64,000 bases of DNA from Actinomycetes bacterium (GTDB lineage: Bacteria; Actinomycetota; Acidimicrobiia; Acidimicrobiales; Ilumatobacteraceae). Each line of letters begins with the position of its first letter. The first letter of the stretch is position 1. The notes beneath the pieces are model-generated. The model was not told where the DNA came from and made no database searches. It saw only the letters and a list, made by a program, of their open reading frames with translations. This document shows positions 2 to 57,519 of this stretch, in pieces. Made by a program: the position numbers and the translations under genes. The stretch covers positions 3,168 to 67,167 of the forward strand of contig JANMCE010000123.1 of assembly GCA_031360915.1 (NCBI GenBank). Direction: 5' to 3'.

Positions 2-589
2 GTCGTTCCCTACCGACTCGCCGAACTGATCTTGGATCGTGACCGCACCTGCCGGAACCCCGCCTGCCACTCCACCCGCGGACTCGAAGTCCACCACCTC
101 GTCCACTGGACTGACGGCGGACCCACCAACCCCGCCAACCTCGGCTGCCTCTGCCGACACTGCCACCGCGACCACCACAAAGGAAAGTTCGGTATCACCG
201 GTAACGCCGAACAACCCAGCGGACTCACCTTCACCAAACCCAACGGCGACACCATCGAACCCTGCGGCACCCCCAACCCCCCAACCGCCGACCTCCCCAC
301 ATCGAACAAGCCCTACCAGCATCCCCTCGGCGAACCCTTCAACCACCACGACCTCACCTTCAACCCGCCACCCTCCAACACACCACGCGTCACACCCCAA
401 CCCATGCGTGAACCATTCTCAAAACCGTGGATAGCGCAGCCGATCGTGCCGCCAGCGGCCGACGTGTACGAACCCACCCCCGCCGACATCACCCGATGGG
501 CCCAAGAACGCCAAGCGTTCTTCGACGAACAGCGGCGGCTTGTGCGGGCAGAATTCCAAGACATAGAACGTCTCGAGCACGCCAACTAA
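2..589 (+). CDS. HNH endonuclease, 3' portion (5' end lies left of the window)
   Basis: The frame is open from nt 2. RDRTCRNPAC...LEVHHLVHWTDGGPTNPANLGCLCRHCHRDHHKG is the Cys/His HNH signature of actinobacterial DUF222/13E12-type proteins. Pro/Thr-rich tail; TAA at 587-589. Confidence 0.8.
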   Translation, partial: VVPYRLAELILDRDRTCRNPACHSTRGLEVHHLVHWTDGGPTNPANLGCLCRHCHRDHHKGKFGITGNAEQPSGLTFTKPNGDTIEPCGTPNPPTADLPTSNKPYQHPLGEPFNHHDLTFNPPPSNTPRVTPQPMREPFSKPWIAQPIVPPAADVYEPTPADITRWAQERQAFFDEQRRLVRAEFQDIERLEHAN

Positions 590-669: not shown

Positions 670-1312
670 TTGACGGTGGGGCCAAAGGCGGAGGATCACG
701 TACAGCACGGCCCGTCGAACTACTTTGTGTTGGAAGAAACGAACGGGGTCGTGGCGTACGCCACGGGCGGGACCGACGCACGAGCGCAGCGGTCGTTGAT
801 CTCCGATCTGCTGCTCCAGACCGAGATCACCTATTCCTCAACCGTTGGCGGCGAGCTGCTGACGGACATCGGCTGGTTCCGAAGCGCCGTACCGTTCGCT
901 CCCGCTCGAGCGAGGTCTATTCTCGCAGGAACGCATCTCCTGGCCGATGCAAACGGCTACTTCCCGGCCGGATCCGGCTACGGCGCCCTCGTACCGGCGC
1001 GGCTGATGGATACCAGCGGACCGGGCACGGTGGACGGCCAATATTGGTCTCCAATCCTGGGACTCGTAGACGGAGCTCGTTGTAGCCCGGCGTGGGGGTG
1101 TGCCGCCTGATGCGGCAGCGGTCGTGCTCAACCTTACGGCTACGGGAACCCAGGGACCTGGGTACGTGTCGGTGTGGCCCTGCGGTGGGATATCCGGGGT
1201 CGAACTCGGTGCTCAATACCGGGCAGAAGATACGGTCGCCAACGCACAGGCTCCACCTCCACGGATAGTTGCAACCGGGACGACCCGACCACACCGGTGC
1301 CGGGATAGGTAG
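670..1312 (+). pseudogene. Frameshifted remnant of a beta-rich actinobacterial surface-type protein
   Basis: ORF 670-1110 ends ...ALVPARLMDTSGPGTVDGQ. The expected continuation AAAVVLNLTATGTQGPGYVSVWPCG is in another frame (ORF 1100-1312). The module pattern is recalled from memory, not searched. There is no intact frame. Confidence 0.3.
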
Positions 1313-1553
1313 TGGCAACTGCTTGGCCAGCATCGGTAGCCAGCGCTGCTCGCTCTCAACCAGTTCGACCGCTGCGAGGCGTCGGGGCATGCGGACGGTG
1401 AGCTCCTCCCCCAACCTGAAGACCACCTTGTCCCAGCCGTGGCCAACTCCACAAAGGGAGATCGGCAAGGTCATGTCGTTGCTGTTGCAACAATGCGCGC
1501 ACCAACGACGAGTCGACGTTCGCTTCGGCTTCGGGCATGCTCATCGACATCAT
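1265..1553 (-). pseudogene. N-terminal fragment of an aminoglycoside/phosphotransferase (APH)-family gene
   Basis: VDSSLVRALLQQQRHDLADLPL (ORF 1356-1553) and GHGWDKVVFRLGEELTVRMPRRLAAVELVESEQRWLPMLAKQLPLPIPAPV (ORF 917-1474) are consecutive APH N-lobe segments in different frames. The catalytic HGD region is absent. Confidence 0.4.
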
Positions 1554-1605
1554 CGTTCATGCTCCTGCATCTATACGCCTGGCGACCCCGGCACCCGGGC
1601 AGGAA

Positions 1606-3258
1606 TTACATCGCGTTGACGATGGTGCCAAGTCCGGGCGACCGGACCAGGCCGGGGTCGAGGATCAATCGGACTTCGGCCTTGGATGGGTCGACACTGG
1701 CTGTCATGACTTCCCACGCGAGGCTCGCAGCCACAATCGGGGCGGCGAACGAGGTTCCGCTCCAGGTGGCCCAGCCGTTGTACGGCACAACGTCGGTGAT
1801 TCGAGGGTCCCCAACTATCTCTGCCTCGGCCGCGCTGTCGAAGAAGCGGCTGTGAAGATCCGTTCCGGGGGCGCACGCCTGGACCCACGGTCCGAAGTTA
1901 GTGAACCAGGCGGGTCCGCTGCCGTCTAGGGCACCTACGGAAATCACCTCATCGAGTGAGGCGGGCCAGGTGGGTCGGGCGGCCGAGCTGTTTCCTGCTG
2001 ATGCCACGACACTTACATTGGTGCGCCGGTACCCCTTGTCGAACAGCAGGTTTCGGATGACTTCGGCGGTGGCGACGGGCCGATCGTCGTCGGAGCTGTA
2101 ACCGCTGATGGACAGGTTGAGAATGAGCGGTACGGCACCATAGGCAAGTGGATTACTCGTGAGAATCTTCGCCTTGAGATCGGCTACCAGATCATCGAGC
2201 ACCTTCTTGGTGACGATCTTGACGACATCGGGCGAGAAGGCAATGGCGGCCGGGTTCAATCTACCAATCCGGTAGAGAAGAAACTCGATCTCCAGAGCGA
2301 GTTCGGCATCATCGACATCGCCGAAAGAACGCACGGCCCTGTGCAGAACGACCTCGGCGCCGGGGGCGACATGATGGACGAGACCGGCGATGAAGGTGCC
2401 GTGACCAGCGTAAGGATCCAACACGCCATCGTGGTTGTTGTCGCAGTGTTCTTCGTCGTACACCCCCGTTGTCTGAACCGATGCGCGTAGGGCATTGGTT
2501 ATGCCGGTGTCGAGCACCGCGACGATGCACTTTGGGAGGCCGGCCGCGTCAGCAGCAACGGCGTGCCGCGCTGCTACCCGATCTGCGGCAACTTCGAGCG
2601 GTGCCGGACGCGACATCGTGCGACGTGGGGCAAGCAGCGTGGCCGGAACCCGGGTCGCGCTCGTCGGGTAGCCGGTCTGCGCAGCCGCGTAGCCAAGTTG
2701 GAACCACAGCGCCGCATCGCCCGACGGGATTGCGCCCGGCGAAGGGATTGCACCCGGCGAAGGAATCGCGCCCGGCGAAGGGATTGCACCCGGCGAAGGA
2801 ATCGCGCCCGGCGAAGGGGAGCCAACCGCCGAGAGTTGGGTCACGGGGTTGCGGTGCACATCGCCGTCGGCGAAGTAGACGTGGTTTACCTGAGCATTGA
2901 TGCCTCTGCGTTGAAGATCCTCGACCGCCACGAGGGGATCGCCAACCTCGATGAGGAGCGCGAATCCTCCCACCAAAGTCGCAACGAGGGGGGCCGTCTG
3001 CTGGCCGGCGGTGATGACAGCGATGGCTTCAACCAGTTGGGTCGATCGCACGAGCAGTTCGGCCGGACGGAACGCATAGCTGCTCCCGTTCTTATCCGTC
3101 GAGAACCGCACCCGGGTGTCCCACGGCTGCCCTGACCCGCCGTCACCGCTGGCTGGCACTTCGGGCCCATCTGGATTCTTTGGATCCGCAGGCAAGCCCG
3201 CAGTGCCGAAACGTTCCCGGAGAAGTTCGCGTCGTAGAGTCGGTCCTTCGAAGGCCAT
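1606..3258 (-). CDS. S8 (subtilisin-like) serine peptidase, no signal peptide, with a tandem SPGAIP linker
   Basis: Asp/His/Ser triad motifs VAVLDTGI, GHGTFIAGLV and SGTSFAAPIVAA. AGGAG lies 5 nt upstream of ATG 3258. The N-terminus is hydrophilic and about 150 aa of it is unassigned. Confidence 0.9.
   Translation of the reverse strand: MAFEGPTLRRELLRERFGTAGLPADPKNPDGPEVPASGDGGSGQPWDTRVRFSTDKNGSSYAFRPAELLVRSTQLVEAIAVITAGQQTAPLVATLVGGFALLIEVGDPLVAVEDLQRRGINAQVNHVYFADGDVHRNPVTQLSAVGSPSPGAIPSPGAIPSPGAIPSPGAIPSPGAIPSGDAALWFQLGYAAAQTGYPTSATRVPATLLAPRRTMSRPAPLEVAADRVAARHAVAADAAGLPKCIVAVLDTGITNALRASVQTTGVYDEEHCDNNHDGVLDPYAGHGTFIAGLVHHVAPGAEVVLHRAVRSFGDVDDAELALEIEFLLYRIGRLNPAAIAFSPDVVKIVTKKVLDDLVADLKAKILTSNPLAYGAVPLILNLSISGYSSDDDRPVATAEVIRNLLFDKGYRRTNVSVVASAGNSSAARPTWPASLDEVISVGALDGSGPAWFTNFGPWVQACAPGTDLHSRFFDSAAEAEIVGDPRITDVVPYNGWATWSGTSFAAPIVAASLAWEVMTASVDPSKAEVRLILDPGLVRSPGLGTIVNAM
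2714..2821 (-). repeat. In-frame 18-nt tandem repeat (two alternating variants, effectively 36-nt units), 5 full copies plus 1 degenerate copy
   Basis: gcgcccggcgaagggatt / gcacccggcgaaggaatc alternate on the plus strand. On the minus strand they encode (SPGAIP)x5 inside the S8 peptidase. Confidence 0.9.
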
Positions 3259-3293
3259 GATTTCTCCTAAAGTCGTCCAGAGTTCGGGGGCAC

Positions 3294-5999
3294 GTGAAAC
3301 AGAGAGTCAGCTCGAAGCTTCGCGATACACCATCGACCGCTTCTCTTGATAGTAATTCCAATACCGATGTGCAGGTTGCGTACCGGTCACAAGACTTGGT
3401 GCACAGAGATCTCGCTGCTGCTCTCGCTCAGGCGAATGACCTGCTTAACAGCCCTTCCGCCGAGGCGCGAGCGGTAGCGCGTTGGACCATCGGAAAAGTC
3501 CGTTACGAGCAGGGATTCCCCGCCCAGGCTAGAACTCTTATGCGTTCAGCGCTGCAGATTTCCAGTCGGTCGGGTCTGCACCGCGTAGAAGGGGCGGTTT
3601 GGCTGTCGCTCGCCGCCGTCCTGGTCGAAGTTGGGCAGGCTACCGAAGCGCTGAATGCTTTAGACCGAGCCGAGCCATTGGTTGAAGGAATCGAGATTGG
3701 CCGGTTAGTTCAACAGCGAGCTTTTGTCCTGTTCAATCTCGGTGACTGGTCCAAAGCCATCCTCGAAGCAAATCGGGCGCTGCCCTTGATACGTGGTCGC
3801 GCCGATAACGTCGGCGAAGCTCGACTGCTGTTGCTGCGAGGAGTGTGCCACCTGGGCGCTAGCGCACATCACGCAGCCGTAGCCGACTTCCGGGCTGCTG
3901 GACAGCTCGCCGATCGCATAGGTGAACGCCTGATATCTGCGCTGTGCCAACAGAACCTGGGCTGCACCTACGGCCGTCTGGGTGATATCCCCTCCGCTCT
4001 GTCGTGTTTCGAAGAAGCACGGCTTGCGTATCGACGTCACGGCGAGGCCACCCGCCTCCTCACAATTCTCGACACCGATCTTGCCGAAACACTCCTCCTG
4101 GCCGGCCTCACCGGTGAAGCAGTAGATGCCGCCCAACGCTCTGCTGAGTCGGCGGCACTGGCAGGAAACGTGGTCAACGAGGGCGATGCCCGGCTCATGA
4201 TGGCCCGCGCTCTGCTCGCCAACCGCCAGTTCGATGAGGCACAGTCAACCGCTCGAGACGCAGCCAGACTGTTTCGCCGGTCGCGGCGTCCGGGTTGGGC
4301 CCTGTTGGCCGAGTACGTGGCGCTCCAGGGAATCGTTGAGGGATCGCAAGACGACGTACGGCCGCCATTAGCGCTGTTGAAGAAGGCGGCTGGCCTCGCC
4401 GATCGCCTCGCCGCCAACGACTGGCAGAACGAATCTCGCCACGTCCGTACCTATGTCGCCCGCATAGCGATCGCCCGAGGAGATCGGGGCCTCGCTACGG
4501 CTCAACTGCGTGACGTCGTGATGGCAACGCGAGTAGGACACCTCTCGGCACGCGCCAACGCCTATCACGCTGTTGCGCTCACCCGGCTGGCTCACGGTGA
4601 TACCGCTGGTGCGTTGACTGCGGTTCGATCCGGCCTGAGCCTCATCGACCGATTCCGAGCGGTACTGGGTGCGACCGACCTTCGGTCTGCGGTGGCGGTA
4701 CACGGAGTCGAATTGGCTCGGCTCGGATTCCGCATCGCGCTCGCAACCCAGCGCCCAGCGTCGGTCTTTGAATGGAGCGAACGATGGCGCGGCGTATCGC
4801 TGCGGATCCAAGCGGTGAGGCCACCCGATGACGTTGAACTCGCTGCCCTGCTGTCACGACTCCGCAACCTCCACGTCACCCGTCTTCATGGTCGTGACCA
4901 TCAATCTGCGGATGCAAACGCGGACGCAGCTATTGCTCAGGTTGAGGGTGCCATCGCGCTTCGGGTACGGCAGACCGACGCTCAGCACGGACAGGCCGAC
5001 GTGGTTCCGTCGCTACGCACGCTCTCGTCGCAGCTTGAGAGCCGGGTCATGTTGATCTACACCGAGCTCGACGGCGACCTCTGGCTTCAACGAGTGCACC
5101 GAAAGACGTGGCAGCTCCATCCACTCGGAAAGCTCGACGACATAACGTCGGAGAGTTCCTATCTGGCCTCGGCGGTTCGGCGGATGCTCGCGTTCCGCGA
5201 TCTTCCCGAACTCGAGTCAGATGCGCACACTGCGGCACAAGTCGCCGCCAAACATTTAGATGACCTGCTCTTCGGCCGCGTTCAAGAAGCGTGCGGGGGC
5301 GCGCCGATGGTCATCGTCCCGTCCGCTGGTCTCGTCGGAATGCTCTGGCCTGCGCTGCCAACGCTTGAGAATCGCGAGGTCGTGATCGCTCCCAGTATTA
5401 CCGCTTGGTCCACACGGATACTTGCGGCGGAACCGGTGCCGGTGCCGGCGCGAGTGACGCTGGTGGCAGGACCCGACCTTCCCGCGGTACAGGCAGAACT
5501 CACGGCACTTCGACAGGTGCACCGATCGTCGGCGATGTTGCGGGGAAAGCGGGCGACCGTGAAGGCAGTTCTCGCCGCATTCGAAACAGCCGACCTCATA
5601 CACGTCGCGTCGCACGGCACCTTTCGACGCGACAATCCTCTCTTCTCCGCTTTCCGGCTCGCTGACGGCCCGTTGACCGTTTACGAGTTGGAGCGCCTAA
5701 GCCGCGTGCCGCGCTCGATCGTGCTGTCCAGCTGTTCTGCTGGTTCGACAAGCGTGAGACCGGGCGACGAGCTTATGGGCGCGGCGATCGCGTTTCTGCA
5801 TCTCGGCGCTCGGTCATTGATCGCCCCGACTGATGCCGTCGATGACGACCTCACCTCGCACCTCATGTTGCTCGTACACCGGCACATTGCGAGCGGTTCG
5901 TCCTTGGCCACCGCCCTGTCGTTCGCTCAGACAGAAACCAAGCTTTTGGGGCCTCGGGCCTGGGCGAACGCCTGCCTCTTTCTGGCGTTTGGAGCGTAA
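3294..5999 (+). CDS. TPR-repeat protein with a C-terminal CHAT (caspase-like Cys protease) domain
   Basis: The first ~600 aa are Ala/Leu-rich TPR-like helical repeats. The C-terminus has the CHAT His/Cys dyad context (DLIHVASHGTF...RSIVLSSCSAG). The GTG 3294 start is uncertain because it lies only 35 nt from the divergent S8 start. Confidence 0.85.
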   Translation: MKQRVSSKLRDTPSTASLDSNSNTDVQVAYRSQDLVHRDLAAALAQANDLLNSPSAEARAVARWTIGKVRYEQGFPAQARTLMRSALQISSRSGLHRVEGAVWLSLAAVLVEVGQATEALNALDRAEPLVEGIEIGRLVQQRAFVLFNLGDWSKAILEANRALPLIRGRADNVGEARLLLLRGVCHLGASAHHAAVADFRAAGQLADRIGERLISALCQQNLGCTYGRLGDIPSALSCFEEARLAYRRHGEATRLLTILDTDLAETLLLAGLTGEAVDAAQRSAESAALAGNVVNEGDARLMMARALLANRQFDEAQSTARDAARLFRRSRRPGWALLAEYVALQGIVEGSQDDVRPPLALLKKAAGLADRLAANDWQNESRHVRTYVARIAIARGDRGLATAQLRDVVMATRVGHLSARANAYHAVALTRLAHGDTAGALTAVRSGLSLIDRFRAVLGATDLRSAVAVHGVELARLGFRIALATQRPASVFEWSERWRGVSLRIQAVRPPDDVELAALLSRLRNLHVTRLHGRDHQSADANADAAIAQVEGAIALRVRQTDAQHGQADVVPSLRTLSSQLESRVMLIYTELDGDLWLQRVHRKTWQLHPLGKLDDITSESSYLASAVRRMLAFRDLPELESDAHTAAQVAAKHLDDLLFGRVQEACGGAPMVIVPSAGLVGMLWPALPTLENREVVIAPSITAWSTRILAAEPVPVPARVTLVAGPDLPAVQAELTALRQVHRSSAMLRGKRATVKAVLAAFETADLIHVASHGTFRRDNPLFSAFRLADGPLTVYELERLSRVPRSIVLSSCSAGSTSVRPGDELMGAAIAFLHLGARSLIAPTDAVDDDLTSHLMLLVHRHIASGSSLATALSFAQTETKLLGPRAWANACLFLAFGA

Positions 6000-6025
6000 C
6001 GGGCATCGATCGATCCTTGAGATCA

Positions 6026-6514
6026 CTACGGCGCAATGAGAGGGGTGAGGAGGTTCGTCCCATCACTGAGGGTTACGTGCACGCGGAAAGCACCCCGGGG
6101 GCTCTTGGTCTTGAACCGACCGTGTTCGTCGGTTTCGAACGACTCGGTCGGACCGGCGCCGTGTCGCAGCACCACGGCATGAGATCCCGCTGGCGTCACT
6201 TGGCCAATGAGATCGAGGCCGTGTTCGCTGGGTGCTACCTCGATCTGGACCGTCGAGTGTTCACCTCGGAAGATGACGAGTCGCCATTCGAGGTGCTCGG
6301 CCCTGGCAACCATCAGATCAGAAGCCGTGCTGGTGTCCGTCAGCAACACCAACAGCTCTGCGTCGAGATGTCGAAGCGCAAGGAGCGCCGCGGCGCGATC
6401 AACAGCTGCTTCGGTTGGTCCATCGATTTGGTCGATCGTGGCTGCCAAAACACCGAGCAAAAAGTCGGGCTGTCGTGCTTCATTGTTCGCTTCGACATCG
6501 TCACGCATGGCCAA
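6026..6514 (-). CDS. Hypothetical protein co-transcribed with the sigma factor (possible atypical anti-sigma or partner)
   Basis: It overlaps the sigma gene stop by 14 nt on the same strand. It has no TM segment and no zinc anti-sigma motif. The C-terminus (TDEHGRFKTKSPRGAFRVHVTLSDG) has a CarboxypepD_reg-like beta-sandwich pattern. Confidence 0.5.
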   Translation of the reverse strand: MAMRDDVEANNEARQPDFLLGVLAATIDQIDGPTEAAVDRAAALLALRHLDAELLVLLTDTSTASDLMVARAEHLEWRLVIFRGEHSTVQIEVAPSEHGLDLIGQVTPAGSHAVVLRHGAGPTESFETDEHGRFKTKSPRGAFRVHVTLSDGTNLLTPLIAP

Positions 6515-7214
6515 GACCTCCCTCGGCCTGCCGATCGAGGAACACTCTCAACTCTGGTCGGCTTCGCAGCTTTTCCAGACACCGACCCTTGGTTGGGCCA
6601 ATCGAACCGTGTGGAAGCCCGAGAAGTTCGACAATCTCGTCGTAGGACAGGGGAGGGTCCAGGGTTAGGAGACGAAGGATGCTCTGGCACGCTGCCGACA
6701 GGTGCTGGAAGGCCCGCCAGACCGCAACCGAAAGCTCGTTATCCAGCAGGGCTTCGTCCATCGCCTGATAATCGACCAAGGCAACGTCAGGCTCGGCCAC
6801 CGGTACGTACCGGGCACGCGCCTTCACAAACTGGAGCGCCTCGTTTCGGGCGGTCGTCATCAGCCAGCTGACGAGACTGGCCGGCTTCTCGATCTTGTCG
6901 ATGTGTTCGAGCAGTTTCAGCCACGTGTTCGAGAACACATCGTCTCTCGCCTCGACCGACAGCGTGAACGCTCCGATGCCACGATGCAACGCCGGAGACA
7001 GACACCGCACCAGTACGTCCCATGCACTGGCATCACCGCTTCTGATTCGAGCGACAAGCGTCTCAATCTCGGCACCGCTCAGCCGACGAGCAGCGCCAGG
7101 GCGACCCGAAAGCCAGCCGTCGCTACCGTGGTCGCCCTGACCGGGCACCGTTTGGGCGGGCATCGGCAGAGCATAGGTCAAGGGGGGAACCATGAATTTC
7201 GTTTCCAATCTCAC
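6501..7214 (-). CDS. Sigma-70 family, ECF-type RNA polymerase sigma factor
   Basis: Region 2 (DVFSNTWLKLLEHIDKIEKPASLVSWLMTTARNEALQFV) and region 4 HTH (LLTLDPPLSYDEIVELLGLPHGSIGPTKGRCLEKLR). The ~45-aa N-terminal extension means the true start may be internal. Confidence 0.8.
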   Translation of the reverse strand: MRLETKFMVPPLTYALPMPAQTVPGQGDHGSDGWLSGRPGAARRLSGAEIETLVARIRSGDASAWDVLVRCLSPALHRGIGAFTLSVEARDDVFSNTWLKLLEHIDKIEKPASLVSWLMTTARNEALQFVKARARYVPVAEPDVALVDYQAMDEALLDNELSVAVWRAFQHLSAACQSILRLLTLDPPLSYDEIVELLGLPHGSIGPTKGRCLEKLRSRPELRVFLDRQAEGGLGHA

Positions 7215-7320
7215 GTCTGATTTGGCACTGGCGATCTATGGAGTCCTCTCAAAGCCGGTCGATACAAGAGTTCTCGGACGATCACGCAAAACAAGGCCCA
7301 CGGGCCATAGCCTTTTGACC

Positions 7321-7506
7321 ATGGATCCTGTGAACGTCTCGATGGTCGTCGCTTCGCTCTCTACCTGGCCCGACGAATGGCTCCATCGTGCCTCTCGACT
7401 GGTGCGAGCGACGATTGATCGATCGACCGATCGACTAGATGTCGAGGACCTGCGCCAACAGCTCGACCAGTACGAAGGGGAGCGGGCTCGACGCAACGCC
7501 GCCTGA
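7321..7506 (+). CDS. Small hypothetical protein (61 aa from an internal ATG of ORF 7192-7506)
   Basis: It is only an open frame with acceptable codon usage, convergent with the operon end. No motif was recognised. Confidence 0.2.
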   Translation: MDPVNVSMVVASLSTWPDEWLHRASRLVRATIDRSTDRLDVEDLRQQLDQYEGERARRNAA

Positions 7507-7517
7507 GCCCTCGGACA

Positions 7518-7536
7518 GTGGGCTCCGCCAGCCCAC
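7518..7536. terminator. Hairpin between convergent genes (7-bp perfect stem, 5-nt loop)
   Basis: gtgggct-ccgcc-agcccac lies 20 nt downstream of the stop of the last operon gene and 12 nt downstream of ORF 7192-7506. There is no U-tract. Confidence 0.4.
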
Positions 7537-7555
7537 GGCCCTCAGCTTGCACCCG

Positions 7556-7984
7556 TTACGGGTTGCGGATCTCGAAAACCGGACCCTCACCAAAGCCGGC
7601 CATCTCGGTCTTCACACCGTTAACGGCGGTGTGGCTGACCAGGACGACAAGCTTGTAGACGGTGTCGGTGCTCGGGGGCGGCGGCACGCTGTGAGCGGCC
7701 ACGTTGATGATGGCCGAGTAGTTGTTGCCACCGTTGAGCAGCTGCGTCACGGTAGGGCCAATTTGACCCTCGAAGCCGGCACCGATCGACTCGACCAACG
7801 CCCGCACCGTCCAGGTGCCACCGAGGAAAATCACTCCGGGGCCGGACAGCTGCCAATCCACTCGTACCTGAAAGCCGGTGTCCGTGTCGATGACGCGGCT
7901 CGGCATACCTGCCGGATCAATGAGCGTGACCGCGGTAAGCGTGGCGTCAACGTTCATGACCGGTACATCAAAAGTAAGCGACAT
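7556..7984 (-). CDS. Giant-operon gene 7: small (142 aa) hypothetical protein, beta-rich
   Basis: AAGGAG lies 7 nt upstream of ATG 7984. Strong GC3 coding bias and no signal peptide. TAA stop followed by a hairpin. Confidence 0.75.
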   Translation of the reverse strand: MSLTFDVPVMNVDATLTAVTLIDPAGMPSRVIDTDTGFQVRVDWQLSGPGVIFLGGTWTVRALVESIGAGFEGQIGPTVTQLLNGGNNYSAIINVAAHSVPPPPSTDTVYKLVVLVSHTAVNGVKTEMAGFGEGPVFEIRNP

Positions 7985-8040
7985 GCTGTGATCTCCTTGG
8001 GTTGGGGCTGCCGTTTGTCAGCCACTCCACAGATCCTCAA

Positions 8041-8067
8041 GATCGAGAGGAAATACAGAAATCTTCC
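8041..8067 (-). promoter_or_regulatory. Candidate ECF-type promoter in the spacer before gene 7 (GGAAG-N17-CGATC)
   Basis: Minus strand ctGGAAGatttctgtatttcctctCGATC, about 60 nt upstream of ATG 7984. The pattern resembles the site at 29395-29419. Confidence 0.15.
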
Positions 8068-8185
8068 AGAATCTTTTTGACTCCGGATTCCGATCAGTCT
8101 TAAGGGCGACATCCTGTATTTGCGCCGGTCCCCGAGCGGAACACGCCACGGACATTGCCACAAACACTGGTCTCGCCGTGCTCTG

Positions 8186-11100
8186 TCAGGTGGCGCGGCG
8201 GACCGAACGGGCGGCGAGGTGGTGGTCGGTACGGACGAGGGTGGCGATGTCGGTGTCGACAGTGACCAGCGGGTCTGTGGTGCTGTGGGTCACCGCGAGT
8301 AGCAGCCAACCGGGGTCGGGCCAGGCAGGGCCGGCCAGATCAACTCCAAAGGACACCACCTGAGGTGAGAGCGGCTCGAGGCTGCGGCGGGAGCGGCGGG
8401 CTGGTTGGGTTGGGTCGAGATAACTCCAGTCCGCGTTTAGCCAGGCTCCCGTCGGGGCGCCCGAGGTGATATCGGCCACCAGACTGGCGGTCCAGCTAGC
8501 AGGCAGCGCGGCCAAACCGGCCAACTGGTGATCGCTGGAGAACGGTGTCTTCAGCACCGTGACCCACGAGTCGGCCGCTGCTACCGGTCGCCAATGACGG
8601 GAATGTGCGGCGACAAAAACCAACATCGGGCCATCCCCGGCGACGCACGATGCGGCCTTGCCGGCTCGGGTATCGGGCTCGTCCTGCAAGAAGGCGGTGA
8701 GGTCGGTGAAGTCGGGCGGGTCATGATCGAAGGGCAGCCGGTTGCCGGCCAGTAGCACTTTCCAGATGGCCTCGGGGGTGGGATTCGCTCCCAACAGAAT
8801 GGCGAGATCCTTCAATTCTGCGGCCAATGCGGCTGCCGTCCCCGGACCCCAGGTGCCATCAACTCCCACGGCGCGACCGGCAGCTCGCAGGGCCGATTGC
8901 ACCAGCCAGATGTGGAACTGTGACAACTTCGGCCCGATGGGGATGCCCGGAAACGGTGGCGGATCAGCGGTCGAGCTACGCCAGACCCGTACGTCCGGCG
9001 AACCATCCAACGGCAACGCGCCCCCGGTGAACGGATGGACGGCACCCGAGTCCGGGATGGCGCGACGGGCCGAATCGAACTTATGGGTGCGCAGATAGAG
9101 CGTTGGTCCTTGCGTGACGTCATCGAGCGCTAACTCCCACACACCGCGCGCCGAGGTTGCCGCTCGCAACAGCCGGTTCCCGGGGTCGGTCGCAGTGTTG
9201 CTGTAAATGGTGAGATCGGTAACGGCAGCTTCGGGCAGCCCGTCGGCGTAGTGGGTCCATACCCACGTGGGGGGCTGGCCGACACCGAAATCGCCAACGC
9301 CTTTCCACACCCCAGTGCTGCTGCCGGCGTACACAACGTTGCGATGGTCGGGGTCGACCACAAGGGTATAGATCGGTCCCGACATCTGCAGGCCTGTCGA
9401 AATCCAGTCGCTGACGCCGTTGTACCACCAGACGTTCACGGCCGTCGGCCCGACCCCTACCTTGCCGTTGGATGGGAGCGTGCCGACGTACATCGACCCG
9501 GTGGCGGGTTGATGCGGCGCGAACGAGATGGCCTGCAGGTCGGTCGGGATCTGGGGCGCCGGCGTGTCAGTGAAGTCGATAAAGAAGAAGACGTCAGGTT
9601 GCGACCATTTCCCCGCCGTTCGCTTCAAGTGGTAGAGGTTCGCGAGACCCAGCACGTACAGCGAATCCTTGTCGGCCCACTTCACCATTCGGATCACATC
9701 GTCGAGATGATCCTGTTTTCGATTGGTGCCACCCGCGTAGGGGTCGGTGCCTGTTGGCAGAGTCACCCAGCCCGAGCGCGACCCCTTCTTCGCTTGGAGC
9801 CCGTCGTCGGTGTACCAGATCCGATCGGTGCCCACGGCGAGCTGCGTGGTCGACGCGGCGGCGTCGCCGATGATGCCCATCGAGCTGTAGAAGCCAGCCG
9901 CCTCCCTTTCCTTGGTTCGTACCCCGAGCGCCCATGTGAAGTCGGCCAGCGACAGGGAGAACGAGGGATTGGAGAACAGATCGAAATAGGTGAAGGTCTG
10001 CCCGGCATTCAACGAACGCCACCAACTCCCGTTGGTGTACTGGTGATACATGCGGCTTGGGGTTCGCGGGTCGATGGCCACACCACCGCCATCTCCGCCG
10101 TCGGCTTGCCGCCACGCCTCAGCGCTGAGGCGAAGCACCGTGCCGTTGTCCTGGGTGCCGGAAAGCACCACACCGTCGTGGGTGGCATGGTGGGCCAGGT
10201 AGGTCATTTCGGTGACGGCCAGGCCGCTGTTGACCGACCGGAAGGTGTGGCGATCCCCATCGTGACTGGAACGGAACACACCCCCGTCGCATCCAACCCA
10301 CAGCACCGTTGGCAGGCCGGGCAGGAAACCAGGGACCCACGCCAGCACCTGCACGTCGGGATGCACACCGAGGCCGACCCACCCGGGTCGATTTGGTGGC
10401 CCCGCCTGCGTAGTGCCGATGAACCGGTACGTGGCGCCGTCCTTGCGCACCCGGCCGGTGTACAGCGCGGCGTTGTCGGCGCCGGTTGGATCCTCGAGGC
10501 CCTGACCACCAACCGCAACGGTGTCATCCGTATCGGGACCGAGCGTCGGGCTGGCCGCGATAGCCATGTCATAGGACGCCTGCTTGCCAAAGATGTCCTT
10601 GTCGACGCCACGAACGACGTCGGCGTGGGTGCCCTCGATCCGCCAGAGTCGGGGCCCTTCGGCCACCGCGTAGAGAACCGGGTTGGCGATGCCCTTGCGG
10701 GCCGCCGCCAGAGTCATGCGACCGATACCGATCTTGGGTTCGATGCCCTTGGCTGACTTAGGGAGTGTGATGTTCTGCCAGGAGCCGGCATCGCCCGTGA
10801 GGCTGAACCGTAGGATCCCGCTGCGCTCCGAGGCGTACAGGATCTGGGTACCGACTCCAGTTGAAACCACCAGCACGTCGGCGAGACCCACGTTGGTGGC
10901 CGGCTTCTTCGCCCCTGTTGGAAGGGTATCGACCCGATGCCAGGTGGGCGTCGGCGTGGGGTCGCGGCGGTACAGGTCCTCGCCGGTGGCCGCCCATACC
11001 CGCCCGTCAACCACGGTATCGACGGCCAATCGAGCGACGAAGGTGCCCTCAACCCCCGGTCCGGTCTCAAGCGTCCAGGGGTCGGCATCGGGGCCGCCGT

Positions 11101-41947: not shown

Positions 41948-43198
41948 ATGGACGAGAGCATCAGGCTTGGCCGAATCGCCGGCGTCACTATTGGTTTGAA
42001 CTGGAGTGTGCTGCTGATCGCATGGTTGTTGAGCTGGAGTCTGGCCAGTCACCGATTGCCGACGTCGCACCCAGGGCACACCACCGGGGTGTACTGGACC
42101 GCTGGCGTCGTCACCGCGCTCGTGTTCTTCATGTCTCTGCTCGCCCATGAGATGGGCCACGCCCTCGTGGCTCGCCGACACGGAGTTCGCGTTGAGGGCA
42201 TCACATTGTGGTTGTTCGGCGGTGTCGCCAAACTCGGCGGTGAAGCCGCCACCCCTGCCGCCGAATTCCGAATTGCGGCCGTCGGACCTGCGGTCAGCCT
42301 GGCGTTGGCTGGCCTGTTCGGGGGCAGCGCCGTGCTGTTCGATGCGGTCTCGGCCCCATCGCTGATGGTGGGCGCCGCCACATGGCTCGCGACGATCAAC
42401 CTGATGCTCGCCGTGTTCAACCTGATTCCGGCGGCCCCGCTCGACGGCGGCCGGGTTCTGCGGGCGTTGCTGTGGCGGCGTTCGGGTAACCGAATGAAAG
42501 CAACCGTGACCGCTGCGAACGCCGGCCGGTTCTTCGGTTACCTGCTCATCGTCCTTGGTGTCGTGGAGTTCGCCGCAGGCGCCAGCATCGGTGGCCTTTG
42601 GTTTGTGTTCCTCGGCTGGTTCCTGTTGAACGCGGCTAACGCCGAACGAGTTCATGCCGTCATGACCGACGCCCTCACCGGCGTCCGTGTCCGCGACGTG
42701 ATGACCGCCGATCCGAGTGTCGTGTCCGAGTCCCTGACTGTTGACGAGTTCCTCAACGACCACGTCATGAACCATCGCTGGTCGACGTTCCCGACTACTA
42801 ACTCTGGCGGTGCGATCACCGGGCTCGTCACCCTGGGCCAAGTCAAGGCTGTACCCGCGTTGCTGCGAGTCACGACACACGTGCGAGACATTGCCTGCCC
42901 GATCGGGCAGACCGCCGTGGCAAGCCCGGGCGATGCCGTGACCGACCTGATCGAACGGCTCTCCACGTGTTCGGACCGTCGCTCCCTCGTGTTCGACGGG
43001 ACCGGCTCGTCGGCATCGTGTCACCCACCGACATCAACCGAGCAGTCGAACTTTCCGTGCTCCACACCACCAGGTGACCCGTCATGCCGAACTCCACTGA
43101 TCACACCTTCGCGTTCGCCGATGTCGGCTCTCCAGCCTGTGACGTCGCATGGCTGTGGATCTGCTACCACCGGTGGGCCCGGTGGCATCTCGACGTGA
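41948..43198 (+). CDS. M50 (site-2 protease) family metalloprotease with a CBS pair; C-terminal frameshift
   Basis: LLAHEMGHALVARRHG (HExxH) and NLIPAAPLDGGRVL, followed by CBS-type segments. After ...SLVFDG the homologous tail DRLVGIVSPTDINRAVELSVLHTTR-TGA is in another frame and ends at 43077, 6 nt before the next ATG. Confidence 0.8.
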   Translation: MDESIRLGRIAGVTIGLNWSVLLIAWLLSWSLASHRLPTSHPGHTTGVYWTAGVVTALVFFMSLLAHEMGHALVARRHGVRVEGITLWLFGGVAKLGGEAATPAAEFRIAAVGPAVSLALAGLFGGSAVLFDAVSAPSLMVGAATWLATINLMLAVFNLIPAAPLDGGRVLRALLWRRSGNRMKATVTAANAGRFFGYLLIVLGVVEFAAGASIGGLWFVFLGWFLLNAANAERVHAVMTDALTGVRVRDVMTADPSVVSESLTVDEFLNDHVMNHRWSTFPTTNSGGAITGLVTLGQVKAVPALLRVTTHVRDIACPIGQTAVASPGDAVTDLIERLSTCSDRRSLVFDGTGSSASCHPPTSTEQSNFPCSTPPGDPSCRTPLITPSRSPMSALQPVTSHGCGSATTGGPGGIST

Positions 43199-56298: not shown

Positions 56299-57519
56299 TC
56301 AGTCCTCGGTTTGCGTGCTGCGCGATTCGGGCGAAGTGGCTGCTAACCGGCGAGAGCGTATGGCGAGTTCGAGAGCGAAACGGTCACTCGCATCGGACGG
56401 CGAGTACCTGGTGAGGTCGGCGACTCGATTAAGCCGATAGTCGACCGCGCGTGGACTCAGTCCGAGCAGACGAGCGGTCGCTGTCGTGTTGCCAGATGAG
56501 GCGAAGTGCGCCTCCAGGGTTGCGATGAGGGGTTCGGCGCCACCGCGAGCGCGTTCGAGCGGCCCCAGCACGGTCGCGACAAGTTCGGCCGCTAGCCTCG
56601 GGTCGGCCGTGAGCATCCGATGGGGAAGAAGCCGGTTGAAGAATGCGATCTCGCCCGGCTGAGCATCCCGGTCGGCAAGCTCGAGAGCCTGCAACGCTTC
56701 ACCATAGGAACGCGCCACGCCCGTCACTCCACCGTGTGCCTGCCCGACGCCGATCCGCCACGGCCCGTGCTCGACCTCTACCAACGCTGCCAGCAGGTCG
56801 CGCGTTGAATCCGTCGCGCTGATCGGAAACACGCAGACCAGCAGGTTCTGCTTCGTCGCGATCACAACGTCACGCCCGCCGAGCTTGGCCAGCACATGTC
56901 CCTCGACCCGGGCGAGCACCTGGCCGGCATCCGCCACTCGGCGGCTGTTTTGCGCGGTCAACACCAGGTGCGTGCCAGCGAGGTTGAACCCGACGTGAGC
57001 CGCACGTTCACGAAGTAGCTCGGCATCACCAGCGCCGCCGAGGAGGCCTTCGATGAACTCGCGGCGCAGAGACTCCTCGAAGCGCATGGTGCGGCGCTGA
57101 GCAACTTCGAACCCGGCGGCGAGGGCCTCCGCGGCGTCGTCCGCCGCACGGAACAACGTCGCCGCAACGGTGGCAACCGTGATCGAGTTCGCTTTCGGGG
57201 CGCGCTGCTCGATCTCACCCCAGAGTCGCCACGTTGCGCTGAGGTACAGATCGAGCACCGCCGCGAGTGCAACTCCCCGCTCCGCGGCCTCCTCACCGCG
57301 CTGACGGCAGGCGCTCACCGCACCGTGGGGCAGCCGGCAACCCTGTCGGGCAGCATCAAGCACGACATCAAGGAAGTTGCCGATGAGCCCGACGTCAACC
57401 TTCGCGTCCTGGGCCCCTTTCCTCGCAACGGTCTCTACCTTCGACGCCGGGAGGTCGACAAGCGCTCCGATCTCCGACCGAGAAGCCCCTGTCCCTGCTC
57501 GAGTAACCGATGACCCCAT
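56299..57519 (-). CDS. PucR/CdaR-family transcriptional regulator
   Basis: C-terminal PucR-type HTH TLEAHFASSGNTTATARLLGLSPRAVDYRLNRVADLT. The central region is GGDEF-like. Confidence 0.85.
   Translation of the reverse strand: MGSSVTRAGTGASRSEIGALVDLPASKVETVARKGAQDAKVDVGLIGNFLDVVLDAARQGCRLPHGAVSACRQRGEEAAERGVALAAVLDLYLSATWRLWGEIEQRAPKANSITVATVAATLFRAADDAAEALAAGFEVAQRRTMRFEESLRREFIEGLLGGAGDAELLRERAAHVGFNLAGTHLVLTAQNSRRVADAGQVLARVEGHVLAKLGGRDVVIATKQNLLVCVFPISATDSTRDLLAALVEVEHGPWRIGVGQAHGGVTGVARSYGEALQALELADRDAQPGEIAFFNRLLPHRMLTADPRLAAELVATVLGPLERARGGAEPLIATLEAHFASSGNTTATARLLGLSPRAVDYRLNRVADLTRYSPSDASDRFALELAIRSRRLAATSPESRSTQTED

What the first reader, a model, noticed from the sequence alone, without database searches (positions are those of the whole stretch)
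1606..5999. Divergent pair: cytoplasmic S8 subtilase and stand-alone TPR-CHAT protease
The two protease genes start 35 nt apart on opposite strands, so they share a control region. Neither product has a signal peptide.
TPR+CHAT is the architecture of the caspase-like proteases used in prokaryotic conflict and abortive-infection systems, for example the Csx29 partner of type III-E CRISPR. Here there is no Cas gene or array.
An S8 protease next to a CHAT protease suggests a proteolytic activation cascade or sensor-effector pair. Its position beside the giant operon and an ECF sigma may be functional or coincidental.
Basis: partly seen in the sequence, partly recalled or inferred. Interest (0 to 1): 0.65.

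Follow-up and report, generated by a model that had tools for sequence, protein, structure and literature searches.

The report
Sigma-factor cassette with two cytoplasmic proteases
The two divergent protease genes belong to a recurrent, apparently undescribed four-gene actinobacterial cassette (ECF sigma factor, small partner protein, stand-alone TPR-CHAT caspase-like protease, cytoplasmic subtilase), and the subtilase carries a strange array of identical 5-6-residue peptides that selection keeps identical.

Summary
A 550-aa S8 subtilase (1606-3258, minus) and a 901-aa TPR-CHAT protease (3294-5999, plus) start 35 nt apart. Both keep their catalytic residues and neither has a signal peptide or TM segment. 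No CRISPR array is present.

The pairing is not chance. Among 81 species-level loci found with the S8 family, every locus with enough flank has one of two partners:
- a divergent TPR-CHAT, almost always with an ECF sigma gene and a translationally coupled ~160-aa gene ("c2");
- a cyclase-STAND-TPR gene.

So the neighbouring ECF sigma (6501-7214) and c2 (6026-6508) belong to the unit. The giant operon does not.

A promoter motif, GTATC-N17-CTCT, precedes the sigma gene in most loci and S8 in about a third, but never CHAT. In the window its two best matches lie upstream of S8 and of sigma.

S8 has an I9-like prodomain followed by tandem identical 5-6-aa units (PSPGAI x5 here). Units differ between species but are conserved within a protein (484 synonymous vs 35 non-synonymous codon differences).

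Best reading: a CRISPR-independent relative of the Craspase/DdvA "TPR-CHAT controls an ECF sigma" logic, with S8 as sigma-dependent output. Cleavage steps are inferred.

The parts
1606..3258 (-). S8 subtilase gene (550 aa), probably made as a cytoplasmic zymogen
   Evidence: ORF. Pfam Peptidase_S8 1.5e-17. Catalytic D250/H286/N423/S503 invariant. Subtilisin fold confirmed by Foldseek. GGAG 5 nt upstream of the ATG.
2869..3111 (-). I9-like prodomain of S8 (residues ~50-130, beta-alpha-beta-beta-alpha-beta), ending in the family-conserved NHVYFA strand
   Evidence: AF2 model has pLDDT 86-96 here. Foldseek aligns prodomain plus catalytic domain to PCSK9 over ~500 columns. The motif is conserved in homologues.
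2722..2818 (-). 18-nt tandem array encoding PSPGAI x5.3 (S8 residues 148-179), in a disordered linker between prodomain and catalytic domain
   Evidence: TRF period 18, 5.4 copies. Peptide repeat detected. The 6 codon differences between units are all synonymous. pLDDT <35.
1717..2529 (-). S8 catalytic domain (residues 244-514), with a lineage-specific ~45-aa helical insertion (residues ~330-375)
   Evidence: Pfam stretch 244-514. The insertion is seen only in the window row of alignment A2. Helices 336-366 in the model.
3297..3331 (-). ECF-type promoter-like site upstream of S8: -35 GTATC (3328-3324), 17-nt spacer, -10 CTCT (3306-3303). It overlaps codons 2-12 of the CHAT ORF on the other strand.
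   Evidence: Best PWM hit in the whole 64-kb window, score 17.6. The same motif lies upstream of S8 in 14/39 CHAT-type loci, against 1/39 on the opposite strand and 0/39 in random stretches. QRV and DT, which correspond to the -10 and -35 elements, are the only N-terminal residues conserved in the 54-77% identical CHAT homologues.
3294..5999 (+). TPR-CHAT protease gene (901 aa): TPR solenoid residues ~40-640, CHAT domain 651-882, dyad His774 (5613-5615) and Cys814 (5733-5735)
   Evidence: Pfam. Invariant residues. Profile matches to DdvA 6e-14 and Craspase TPR-CHAT/Csx29 1e-7 to 1e-5.
6026..6508 (-). c2: 160-aa partner protein (two N-terminal helices plus a CarboxypepD_reg-like beta-sandwich); putative sigma inhibitor or anti-sigma
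   Evidence: Aligns with the c2 cluster present in all CHAT-type loci. Pfam CarboxypepD_reg in 13/26 homologues. Always directly downstream of sigma, with a 4-nt stop/start overlap in 25/39 loci and 8 nt here. 389 stand-alone representatives and one sigma-c2 fusion.
6501..7214 (-). ECF sigma factor gene (230-237 aa, depending on the start codon)
   Evidence: Pfam Sigma70_r2. NCBIfam TIGR02937 sigma70-ECF at 58.6 bits, above the cut-off. Nearest PDB matches are ECF sigmas. Belongs to cluster c1, present in 41 loci.
7234..7268 (-). ECF-type promoter-like site upstream of the sigma gene (GTATC-N17-CTCC), presumably autoregulatory
   Evidence: Second-best PWM hit in the window, score 17.3. The motif is present upstream of sigma in 31/41 genome loci.

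Best explanation
The pair is half of a conserved four-gene cytoplasmic signalling cassette of Actinomycetota. The genes are an ECF sigma factor, a translationally coupled small protein (c2), a stand-alone TPR-CHAT caspase-like protease, and an S8 subtilase zymogen.

Proposed mechanism:
1. In the resting state, sigma is held inactive by c2.
2. TPR-CHAT is transcribed independently of sigma and acts as sensor-protease. An unknown cue sensed through its ~600-residue TPR solenoid activates the His774/Cys814 dyad.
3. The active protease cleaves c2 (or another inhibitor) and frees sigma.
4. Sigma transcribes its own sigma-c2 operon and the S8 gene from GTATC-N17-CTCT promoters.
5. S8 is the output protease. 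It is made with an I9-like inhibitory prodomain, followed by a tandem array of identical 5-6-residue units at the pro/mature junction.
6. The units are individually under selection. They most likely act as repeated docking or cleavage sites that couple S8 maturation to its TPR-bearing partner.

Shown here: the gene linkage, the intact active sites, the promoter motif and its strand specificity, the prodomain fold, and selection on the repeats.

Inferred by analogy with Craspase (Csx29-Csx30-CASP-sigma) and DdvA-DdvS: c2 is a sigma inhibitor, CHAT cleaves it, and the repeats interact with TPR.

Unknown: the trigger and the S8 substrates.
For: Linkage, S8-centred scan. Of 81 species-level loci (82 counting the window), 36 have CHAT+sigma+c2, 6 have CHAT alone, and 5 have sigma+c2 with the CHAT side cut off by the contig end. 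29 have the cyclase-STAND-TPR partner (one of these also has a distant sigma gene). 6 have neither, and all 6 are truncated at the contig end.

Linkage, CHAT-centred metagenome scan. Of 17 loci with at least 3.5 kb on both sides, c2 is present in 17, sigma in 13 and S8 in 12. S8 is adjacent and divergent in 37 of 48 cases.

Sigma-c2 coupling. The order is always sigma then c2, and the stop and start codons overlap by 4 nt in 25/39 loci. One representative protein is a Sigma70_r2-c2 fusion.

Promoter. GTATC-N17-CTCT lies upstream of sigma in 31/41 loci. It lies upstream of S8 on the S8 strand in 14/39 loci, against 1/39 on the opposite strand and 0/39 in random stretches. It is upstream of CHAT in 0/64 loci. 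In the window the two top hits of 64 kb are upstream of S8 and of sigma.

Active sites are invariant.

The CHAT domain's closest solved relatives are DdvA (an anti-sigma factor) and Craspase TPR-CHAT. In both systems TPR-CHAT is tied to ECF sigma release (PMC11506125, PMC10028731).

S8 has an I9-like prodomain.

Repeats. They occur in 67 of 84 S8s. Codon differences from the unit consensus are 484 synonymous and 35 non-synonymous. Neutral simulations with the same detection scheme never exceed about 1:1 and lose the arrays altogether. The array starts a median of 8 residues after the conserved prodomain end.
Against: There is no biochemical evidence for any cleavage step.

c2 matches no recognised anti-sigma domain. 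It has no Pfam anti-sigma family and no PDB anti-sigma or Csx30 match. Its AF2 model is poor, with pLDDT 54.

The promoter motif is detectable upstream of S8 in only about 35-45% of CHAT-type genome loci. It is rarer in the more divergent soil metagenome set: 7/34 upstream of sigma and 2/19 upstream of S8.

Four well-flanked CHAT+S8 loci lack sigma/c2 within about 6-10 kb. About 30% of well-flanked CHAT/c2 loci lack S8. The parts are therefore separable.

Basal S8 members paired with CHAT have no repeats, so repeats are not required for the partnership.

The association between repeat period and partner type (period 6 with CHAT, period 5 with cyclase-STAND) maps to essentially one evolutionary transition. 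It is not independent evidence of co-adaptation.
Confidence: 0.5

Rival explanations
1. Direct two-protease cascade. Activated TPR-CHAT cuts the S8 linker or repeats and frees the catalytic domain from its I9-like prodomain; or S8 activates CHAT. The sigma/c2 pair only sets expression levels. This overlaps with the best explanation and is not exclusive of it.
For: The two genes are tightly linked and adjacent-divergent. S8 is a zymogen with an exposed, disordered repeat linker exactly at the pro/mature junction. There is a precedent: SAVED-CHAT cleaves and activates a second protease, PCaspase, in a locus that also holds a sigma factor (bioRxiv 10.1101/2023.06.23.546230).
Against: 29 of 81 S8 loci have a partner with no protease domain (cyclase-STAND-TPR) yet keep the same repeats. 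Basal CHAT-paired S8s lack repeats. Subtilases normally auto-process their prodomain (established knowledge of the family). CHAT specificity is unknown.
Confidence: 0.25
2. Polyprotein peptide signal. S8 auto-trims its own array and releases 5-14 identical penta- or hexapeptides. These are ligands for the partner's TPR domain, as in RNPP-type peptide sensing but wholly intracellular. The result is a positive feedback loop on sigma release (type A) or on cyclase activation (type B).
For: Every copy of the unit is held identical by selection while synonymous sites drift. This is the signature of multi-copy peptide precursors. Units differ between species, and sister species show a concerted V-to-F change in all internal units. 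All 67 units contain a large hydrophobic, aromatic or His residue, the kind that suits a subtilisin P1 site, and 56 contain an aromatic. The unit N-P-x-x-hydrophobic-small resembles the conserved prodomain end N-H-V-x-F-A just upstream. Both alternative partners carry TPR arrays.
Against: There is no evidence of release. No export or import genes are conserved in the loci. Identity of all copies is equally expected for a multivalent tethered ligand. The period/partner correlation is phylogenetically confounded.
Confidence: 0.15
3. The cassette is an anti-phage or abortive-infection system. TPR-CHAT senses a phage cue, and the sigma-induced cytoplasmic S8 degrades host or phage proteins. This is a statement about biological role and is compatible with the mechanisms above.
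For: All three characterised TPR-CHAT/ECF-sigma systems are defence-linked: Craspase, the III-B SAVED-CHAT system, and DdvA/DdvS. The repeat units diversify rapidly between species. GC3 of the four genes (0.65-0.70) is lower than that of the neighbouring giant operon (0.77-0.81). An HNH endonuclease fragment lies next door.
Against: PADLOC gives only sub-threshold partial hits (IetS 1.5e-5, BovA 3.5e-4, each covering only short stretches of the model). No known defence genes recur among the conserved neighbours. The family is essentially absent from phage and plasmid records. An ECF sigma with a protease output could equally serve a stress or developmental response.
Confidence: 0.3
4. Chance adjacency of two unrelated housekeeping proteases.
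For: None beyond the fact that both families are large.
Against: The linkage recurs across classes of Actinomycetota in two independent scans. A promoter motif is shared with the linked sigma gene.
Confidence: 0.01

Closest known systems
Type III-E CRISPR accessory set: Csx29 (TPR-CHAT), Csx30, Csx31, CASP-sigma/RpoE (Craspase; Strecker et al. 2022, PMC10028731)
   Same: A TPR-CHAT protease with a His-Cys dyad is encoded next to an ECF sigma and small proteins of unknown fold. In Craspase the protease cleaves a sigma inhibitor and unleashes a transcriptional response. The CHAT-domain profile matches Craspase TPR-CHAT/Csx29 chains at 1e-7 to 1e-5.
   Different: There is no Cas7-11/gRAMP, CRISPR array or Cas gene, so the activating signal cannot be target RNA. 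c2 (160 aa) shows no detectable similarity to Csx30. There is an extra, sigma-dependent S8 subtilase with peptide repeats. The host phylum is Actinomycetota.
DdvA/DdvS of Myxococcus xanthus (anti-sigma factor with periplasmic TPR-CHAT; PMC11506125, PDB 8ROT/8RW5)
   Same: It is the closest solved CHAT relative (6e-14). TPR-CHAT is coupled to release of an ECF sigma.
   Different: DdvA is one transmembrane polypeptide: a zinc anti-sigma domain, a TM helix and a periplasmic TPR-CHAT. Its release step depends on RseP. Here TPR-CHAT is a separate soluble protein with no TM segment, and the candidate sigma partner c2 has no Zn motif. According to that paper, DdvA-like proteins are confined to Myxococcota and one Comamonas species.
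Type III-B/CBASS SAVED-CHAT to PCaspase cascade of Haliangium ochraceum (Steens et al., bioRxiv 10.1101/2023.06.23.546230)
   Same: Two proteases are encoded in one locus with a sigma factor. A CHAT protease activates a second protease.
   Different: The sensor there is a SAVED domain that binds cA3, not TPR. The second protease there is a caspase, not a subtilase. That system is CRISPR/CBASS-linked.
Classical subtilase zymogens with I9 propeptide (subtilisin BPN', Tk-subtilisin, PCSK9)
   Same: Asp/His/Ser triad and oxyanion Asn. An N-terminal beta-alpha-beta-beta-alpha-beta prodomain is packed as in PCSK9.
   Different: No signal peptide. A disordered ~80-residue linker with tandem identical 5-6-aa units lies between prodomain and catalytic domain. 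The gene is obligatorily paired with a TPR-bearing partner.
RNPP peptide-receptor systems (Rap/Phr, NprR, PlcR) and multi-copy peptide precursors such as yeast alpha-factor (own knowledge)
   Same: Short peptides of 5-7 residues are recognised by cytoplasmic TPR proteins. The peptides diversify between lineages. Tandem identical copies are kept by selection in polyprotein precursors.
   Different: No secretion signal, exporter or Opp importer is linked. The peptides are fused to the protease itself. Release is unproven. The TPR partner carries a CHAT or cyclase-STAND module, not an HTH or phosphatase.

Membership tests
Peptidase S8 (subtilase) | Asp-His-Ser catalytic triad in D-T-G / H-G-T / G-T-S motifs, plus the oxyanion Asn | tested here: met
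   D250, H286, N423 and S503 are invariant in 32 sequences. Pfam PF00082 1.5e-17. Subtilisin fold with TMt ~0.72.
Peptidase S8 (subtilase) | I9-type N-terminal propeptide (inhibitor/chaperone) | tested here: met
   The AF2 model shows beta-alpha-beta-beta-alpha-beta at residues 50-130 with pLDDT 86-96. It co-aligns with the PCSK9 prodomain plus catalytic domain. There is no Pfam I9 sequence hit, so this holds at fold level only.
CHAT / clan CD caspase-like protease (TPR-CHAT architecture) | CHAT domain with a His-Cys dyad, preceded by a TPR solenoid | tested here: met
   PF12770 6.4e-28 and TPR_12. H774-G775 and C814 are invariant and align to the DdvA dyad.
Type III-E Craspase module | Association with Cas7-11/gRAMP and a CRISPR array | tested here: not met
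   No array in 64 kb. No Cas family among the scanned ORFs. None recurs in 160 related loci.
Type III-E Craspase module | ECF sigma encoded in the locus | tested here: met
   TIGR02937 above the cut-off. Conserved with CHAT in 36/42 loci.
Type III-E Craspase module | Csx30-like sigma inhibitor that is the CHAT substrate | tested here: inconclusive
   c2 is the positional candidate but has no sequence match to Csx30 or any anti-sigma factor in PDB or Pfam. Cleavage cannot be tested with these tools.
DdvA-type anti-sigma factor | One polypeptide with an N-terminal zinc anti-sigma domain, a TM helix and a TPR-CHAT | tested here: not met
   The CHAT protein has no TM segment (maximum KD19 of 1.62, inside the CHAT domain) and no anti-sigma domain hit.
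ECF sigma / anti-sigma pair | Sigma2 plus sigma4 regions; co-transcribed cognate inhibitor; autoregulated promoter | tested here: inconclusive
   Sigma: met. Co-transcription and translational coupling with c2: met. A conserved promoter-like motif lies upstream of sigma. That c2 is an anti-sigma factor is unproven.
Known anti-phage systems in PADLOC-DB v2 | Significant full-length match to a system's protein models | tested here: not met
   Only short partial hits: IetS 1.5e-5 over ~55 model positions, BovA 3.5e-4.
RNPP-type peptide signalling | Exported pro-peptide, processed and re-imported; TPR receptor with an HTH or phosphatase output | not testable with these tools
   There is no signal peptide and no conserved transporter. 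Peptide release and binding need experiments.

The most novel reading that the evidence does not exclude
The S8 zymogen carries, at its pro/mature junction, a tandem array of cleavage-site-like units (consensus N/S-P-x(1-2)-hydrophobic-small). Each unit is individually kept identical by selection. The units are either released as multiple copies of one intracellular penta- or hexapeptide, or threaded as a multivalent ligand into the partner's TPR solenoid. Either way, a protease-encoded peptide code gates an ECF sigma switch (with the CHAT partner) or a cyclase-STAND switch (with the c4 partner). This would be a bacterial, fully cytoplasmic polyprotein-type peptide signal with its own receptor, diversifying between species like pherotypes.
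Probability: 0.12. Interest if true: 0.85.

Novelty: new variant of a known kind. Interest (0 to 1): 0.68.

Why it matters
TPR-CHAT proteases that control ECF sigma factors are so far known only as CRISPR accessories (Craspase, the III-B SAVED-CHAT system) or as the myxobacterial membrane anti-sigma factor DdvA.

This cassette shows the same logic free of CRISPR and of the membrane. It is widespread across Acidimicrobiia, Thermoleophilia, Nitriliruptoria and Actinomycetes, including cultured Nonomuraea and Actinomadura. That raises two points:
- Craspase may have recruited a pre-existing sigma-protease switch.
- The cassette offers a tractable system for asking what a stand-alone TPR-CHAT senses.

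The S8 partner adds something with no described counterpart in the library searched. It is a protease whose linker is an array of identical short peptides. Each copy is under strong purifying selection within a protein, yet the unit is replaced wholesale between species. If these units are ligands or substrates for the TPR partner, they give a directly testable peptide-recognition code. They may also give programmable protease-reporter parts, as Craspase did.

Tried and rejected
- A GC3-based gene caller failed. It missed CHAT and c2 because their GC3 is low. I replaced it with six-frame ORFs plus HMMs and clustering.
- The apparent 336-aa 'short S8' (P0001) in a sister contig is a scaffold gap of Ns inside the repeat array. 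It is not a frameshift or phase variation.
- Cluster c10 (13 loci) is an antisense shadow ORF of the sigma gene, not a gene.
- The link between repeat period and partner type (Fisher p 1.5e-10) is rejected as independent evidence. The NJ tree shows period 5 is a single clade.
- The c2 structure prediction was too poor (pLDDT 54) for a fold search.
- Single-sequence PDB search with the CHAT domain found nothing. A profile was needed.
- The ECF reclassification paper (PMC7826278) has no mention of CHAT, subtilisin or peptidase in its main text, and its supplements are not held. The Kaur et al. 2020 conflict-systems paper does not describe this module.
- No paper listed in the library search (min 2 of 3 terms) combined TPR-CHAT, sigma factor and subtilisin, and no paper contains the repeat strings.
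- The sigma-70 promoter and terminator scan of 1400-8300 was at chance level.
- Plasmid and phage searches found no mobile-element association.
- The first metagenome scan with the 32-sequence alignment failed for lack of a conserved stretch. It worked with 12 sequences.

Full report
**1. Observation**

The window holds a 550-aa ORF at 1606-3258 (minus strand) and a 901-aa ORF at 3294-5999 (plus strand), 35 nt apart. Pfam assigns Peptidase_S8 (1.5e-17) to the first. It assigns CHAT (6.4e-28) and TPR_12 (1.5e-16) to the second.

- S8: D250, H286, N423 and S503.
- CHAT: H774 and C814. These align with the H862/C907 dyad of DdvA.

Neither protein has an N-terminal hydrophobic segment or a convincing TM helix. 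The only closely spaced direct repeat in the 64 kb is an 18-nt array inside S8, so there is no CRISPR array. No Cas family appeared among the ORFs I scanned. The window comes from an ENA metagenome (BUSI22-1 scaffolds). Its relatives are Acidimicrobiia, mainly Ilumatobacteraceae.

**2. The pair recurs, and the unit is larger**

I aligned 32 S8 homologues and scanned one genome per GTDB species. This returned 80 loci with up to 10 kb of flank. I analysed them by six-frame ORFs, family HMMs and all-against-all clustering. The counts below cover these 80 loci, one further locus (L005) and the window, 82 in all:

| Locus content | Loci |
|---|---|
| TPR-CHAT + ECF sigma ('c1') + ~160-aa protein ('c2'), including the window | 36 |
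| CHAT only (two are truncated contigs) | 6 |
| sigma + c2, with S8 at the contig edge | 5 |
| 'c4' partner directly upstream on the S8 strand (one also has a distant sigma gene) | 29 |
| none of these, all truncated at the S8 edge | 6 |

The TPR-CHAT in the first group belongs to the window's family (400-880 bits). The c4 partner is an ~875-aa protein. So every S8 of this family with readable flanks has one of two TPR-bearing partners.

c4 is a class III nucleotide cyclase fused to a STAND ATPase and a TPR region. Apart from one distant sigma gene, sigma and c2 are absent from c4 loci.

The reverse test used a CHAT-centred scan of metagenome contigs. Among 17 loci with at least 3.5 kb on both sides, it found c2 in 17, sigma in 13 and S8 in 12. 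S8 was adjacent and divergent in 37 of 48 cases.

The window's 6026-6508 ORF aligns with the c2 family, and the 6501-7214 ORF is the sigma. Nothing from the giant operon clusters with any other locus, so that adjacency is lineage-specific.

**3. Sigma and c2**

The gene order is always sigma then c2. The c2 start overlaps the sigma stop by 4 nt in 25 of 39 loci, and by 8 nt in the window. This is the usual layout of sigma/anti-sigma pairs.

- c2 has two predicted N-terminal helices and an all-beta C-terminal part (low confidence).
- The C-terminal part scores as CarboxypepD_reg-like in 13 of 26 homologues.
- c2 has no TM segment and no zinc motif, and it matches no anti-sigma factor or Csx30 in PDB.
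- An exhaustive search found 389 representatives. Nearly all are stand-alone proteins of 145-185 aa. One 311-aa protein has Sigma70_r2 in front of the c2 region. That single fusion could be a gene-calling artefact at the overlap.

c2 is therefore the positional candidate for the sigma inhibitor, but this is an inference.

**4. A promoter motif links sigma and S8, but not CHAT**

Dyad enumeration upstream of the sigma genes gave GTATC-N17-CTCT(G), present in 31 of 41 loci. It usually lies 45-90 nt upstream of the first conserved residue. I built a PWM from these sites and scanned other regions:

| Region scanned | Hits / loci |
|---|---|
| Upstream of S8, S8 strand (genome loci) | 14 / 39 |
| Same region, opposite strand | 1 / 39 |
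| Random stretches | 0 / 39 |
| Upstream of CHAT, CHAT strand (metagenome loci) | 0 / 64 |
| Upstream of CHAT, opposite strand | 10 / 64 |

In the window, the two best hits in all 64 kb on both strands are:
- 3297-3331 (minus), score 17.6. Its -10 element ends 45 nt upstream of the S8 ATG, ahead of the GGAG.
- 7234-7268 (minus), score 17.3, upstream of sigma.

A weaker site (score 12.2) lies upstream of the 142-aa gene at 7556-7984.

The S8 site overlaps CHAT codons 2-12. In CHAT homologues 54-77% identical to the window protein, the only conserved N-terminal residues are QRV and DT. Those are the complements of CTCT and GTATC. This fits a promoter constraint and leaves the CHAT start (GTG 3294 or a downstream GTG) uncertain.

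S8 is therefore most likely a member of the sigma regulon, and CHAT is expressed independently. The motif is less frequent in the more divergent soil set, where the sigma specificity may differ.

**5. Anatomy of S8**

AlphaFold2 with the family alignment gives three parts:
- a confident beta-alpha-beta-beta-alpha-beta domain at residues 50-130;
- a disordered segment at 132-212;
- the catalytic domain.

Foldseek finds subtilisins, and it aligns prodomain plus catalytic domain to PCSK9 over about 500 columns. The N-terminal domain is thus an I9-like propeptide at fold level. It ends in a family-conserved strand, P-N-H-V-x-F-A.

A tandem array of identical peptides starts 0-25 residues after that strand (median 8). 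It ends 28-89 residues before the catalytic Asp. Properties of the arrays:
- Arrays are present in 67 of 84 S8s, with 3-14 copies of period 5 or 6.
- Example units are PVYAN, ANPWR, GNPVTF, HANPAM and HPSTWP. The window has PSPGAI x5.3, encoded at 2722-2818.
- 42 units contain N-P, 14 more contain S-P, and 56 of 67 contain an aromatic residue.
- The period-6 consensus, N/S-P-x-x-hydrophobic-small, resembles the junction strand just upstream.

**6. The repeats are under selection**

Within arrays, codon differences from the unit consensus are 484 synonymous and 35 non-synonymous, over 2388 codons. The arrays were delimited at peptide level, which could bias this ratio. I therefore simulated neutral mutation with the same detection rule:
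- The synonymous to non-synonymous ratio never exceeded about 1:1.
- Total synonymous differences never exceeded about 51.
- At the divergence needed to explain the observed synonymous differences, the arrays became undetectable.

So each copy is kept identical by purifying selection, while units differ between species. Sister S8s L023 and L028 differ by V to F in all six internal units but share the terminal unit, which is concerted change.

Period 6 goes with CHAT partners (27 loci, against 6 with period 5). Period 5 goes with c4 partners (24 loci, against 0 with period 6). However, an NJ tree of catalytic domains shows period 5 as one clade. That clade contains all c4-type S8s plus a CHAT-type subclade. 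The correlation therefore reflects roughly one event and is not independent evidence of co-adaptation. Basal CHAT-paired S8s have no repeats.

The 336-aa 'short S8' in a sister contig is caused by a scaffold gap of Ns inside the array.

**7. Comparison with known systems**

A CHAT-domain profile matches DdvA best (6e-14), then Craspase TPR-CHAT/Csx29 (1e-7 to 1e-5), then separase weakly.
- In Craspase, Csx29 cleaves Csx30, an inhibitor of the ECF sigma CASP-sigma (PMC10028731).
- In Myxococcus, DdvA is a transmembrane anti-sigma factor whose periplasmic part is a TPR-CHAT. It is proposed to self-cleave before RseP acts (PMC11506125).
- In a type III-B/CBASS hybrid, SAVED-CHAT activates a second protease in a locus with a sigma factor.

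The cassette shares the pairing of TPR-CHAT with an ECF sigma. It fails the defining features of each system:
- There is no Cas7-11 or CRISPR array.
- There is no fused anti-sigma domain or TM helix.
- There is no SAVED domain.

It adds a subtilase. PADLOC gives only sub-threshold partial hits. I found no description of the module or of the repeats in the library.

**8. Mechanism and confidence**

I commit to a sigma switch (confidence about 0.5 for the overall logic). TPR-CHAT acts as sensor-protease and relieves c2 inhibition of the ECF sigma. The sigma then transcribes its own operon and the S8 zymogen gene, and S8 is the proteolytic output.

Three further readings are compatible with the data and are ranked as rivals:
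- A direct CHAT-to-S8 cascade.
- Release of the repeats as peptides, or their binding as TPR ligands.
- A defence role for the whole cassette.

Shown here:
- the gene linkage;
- the intact active sites;
- the strand-specific shared promoter motif;
- the prodomain fold;
- selection on the repeats.

Inferred: every protein-protein and cleavage step, the trigger, and the S8 substrates.

**9. Verdict**

The finding is real and more interesting than first described. It is a widespread, apparently undescribed variant of the protease-controlled ECF sigma theme, and one of its components is peculiar. Cultured carriers exist for experiments: Nonomuraea gerenzanensis, where S8, sigma and c2 form one operon divergent from CHAT, and Actinomadura darangshiensis DSM 45941 (locus L081).

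Noticed in passing
window 8186-29322 (-): A giant co-directional operon encodes proteins of about 1150, 1302, 344, 710, 3320 and 235 aa. The only Pfam hit is DUF6603, in the 3320-aa protein. Its GC3 (0.77-0.81) is clearly higher than that of the sigma/protease cassette (0.65-0.70). It is not found next to the cassette in other species.
   Followed up: partly
window 7556-7984 (-) and 8025-8059 (-): A 142-aa ORF with no family match sits just upstream of the sigma gene. It is preceded by a weaker copy of the sigma-type promoter motif (GTATT-N17-ATCT, PWM score 12.2), so it may be a third regulon member in this lineage.
   Followed up: partly
window ~2130-2270 (-), S8 residues ~330-375: The window's S8 has a ~45-residue helical insertion inside the catalytic domain. 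It is absent from all 31 aligned homologues.
   Followed up: no
S8 homologues of the period-5 clade (e.g. P0012, P0018, P0020; alignment A2 columns ~270-285): A Cys-rich motif (CxCCxPHP) lies between the prodomain end and the repeat array in many period-5 S8s. The window protein lacks it. It could be a metal or redox site.
   Followed up: no
L023 6346-7833 vs L028 9440-11260: These sister S8 genes carry GNPSFV x6 and GNPSFF x6 respectively, and share the terminal unit GNPSYV. One amino-acid change has been propagated through all internal units, although the units differ at synonymous sites.
   Followed up: partly
L002 ~9380-9480: A run of Ns (scaffold gap) falls exactly in the S8 repeat array of a sister contig. 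It produces a truncated 336-aa gene call (P0001). The array evidently breaks short-read assemblies.
   Followed up: yes
P0256 (311 aa, from the representative search): A single protein has Sigma70_r2 at residues 25-81 and a c2-like region at 157-284. It is either a genuine sigma-c2 fusion or a frameshift at the overlapping stop/start codons.
   Followed up: partly
window 2-589 (+), 917-1474 (-): The left flank holds the C-terminal part of an HNH endonuclease and a fragment of an APH-type phosphotransferase. The window differs here from sister contig L001, which has an intact 345-aa ORF.
   Followed up: partly
window 58065-58099 (-), 57216-57250 (-): Two further PWM matches to the sigma-type motif (scores 14.3 and 12.9) lie near a PucR-like regulator gene (56299-57519). 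The total number of window hits at this threshold is at chance level, so they may mean nothing.
   Followed up: no
window 41948-43198 (+): An M50 (site-2 protease family) peptidase gene lies 36 kb from the cassette. It is probably a housekeeping Rip/RseP homologue. I note it because S2P proteases finish anti-sigma degradation in other ECF systems.
   Followed up: no
L005-L083 type-B loci (e.g. L027 7222-11377): A second conserved two-gene operon consists of a class III cyclase-STAND ATPase-TPR protein followed by the repeat-bearing S8, often with overlapping stop and start codons. It occurs in 29 species-level loci and appears to be undescribed.
   Followed up: partly
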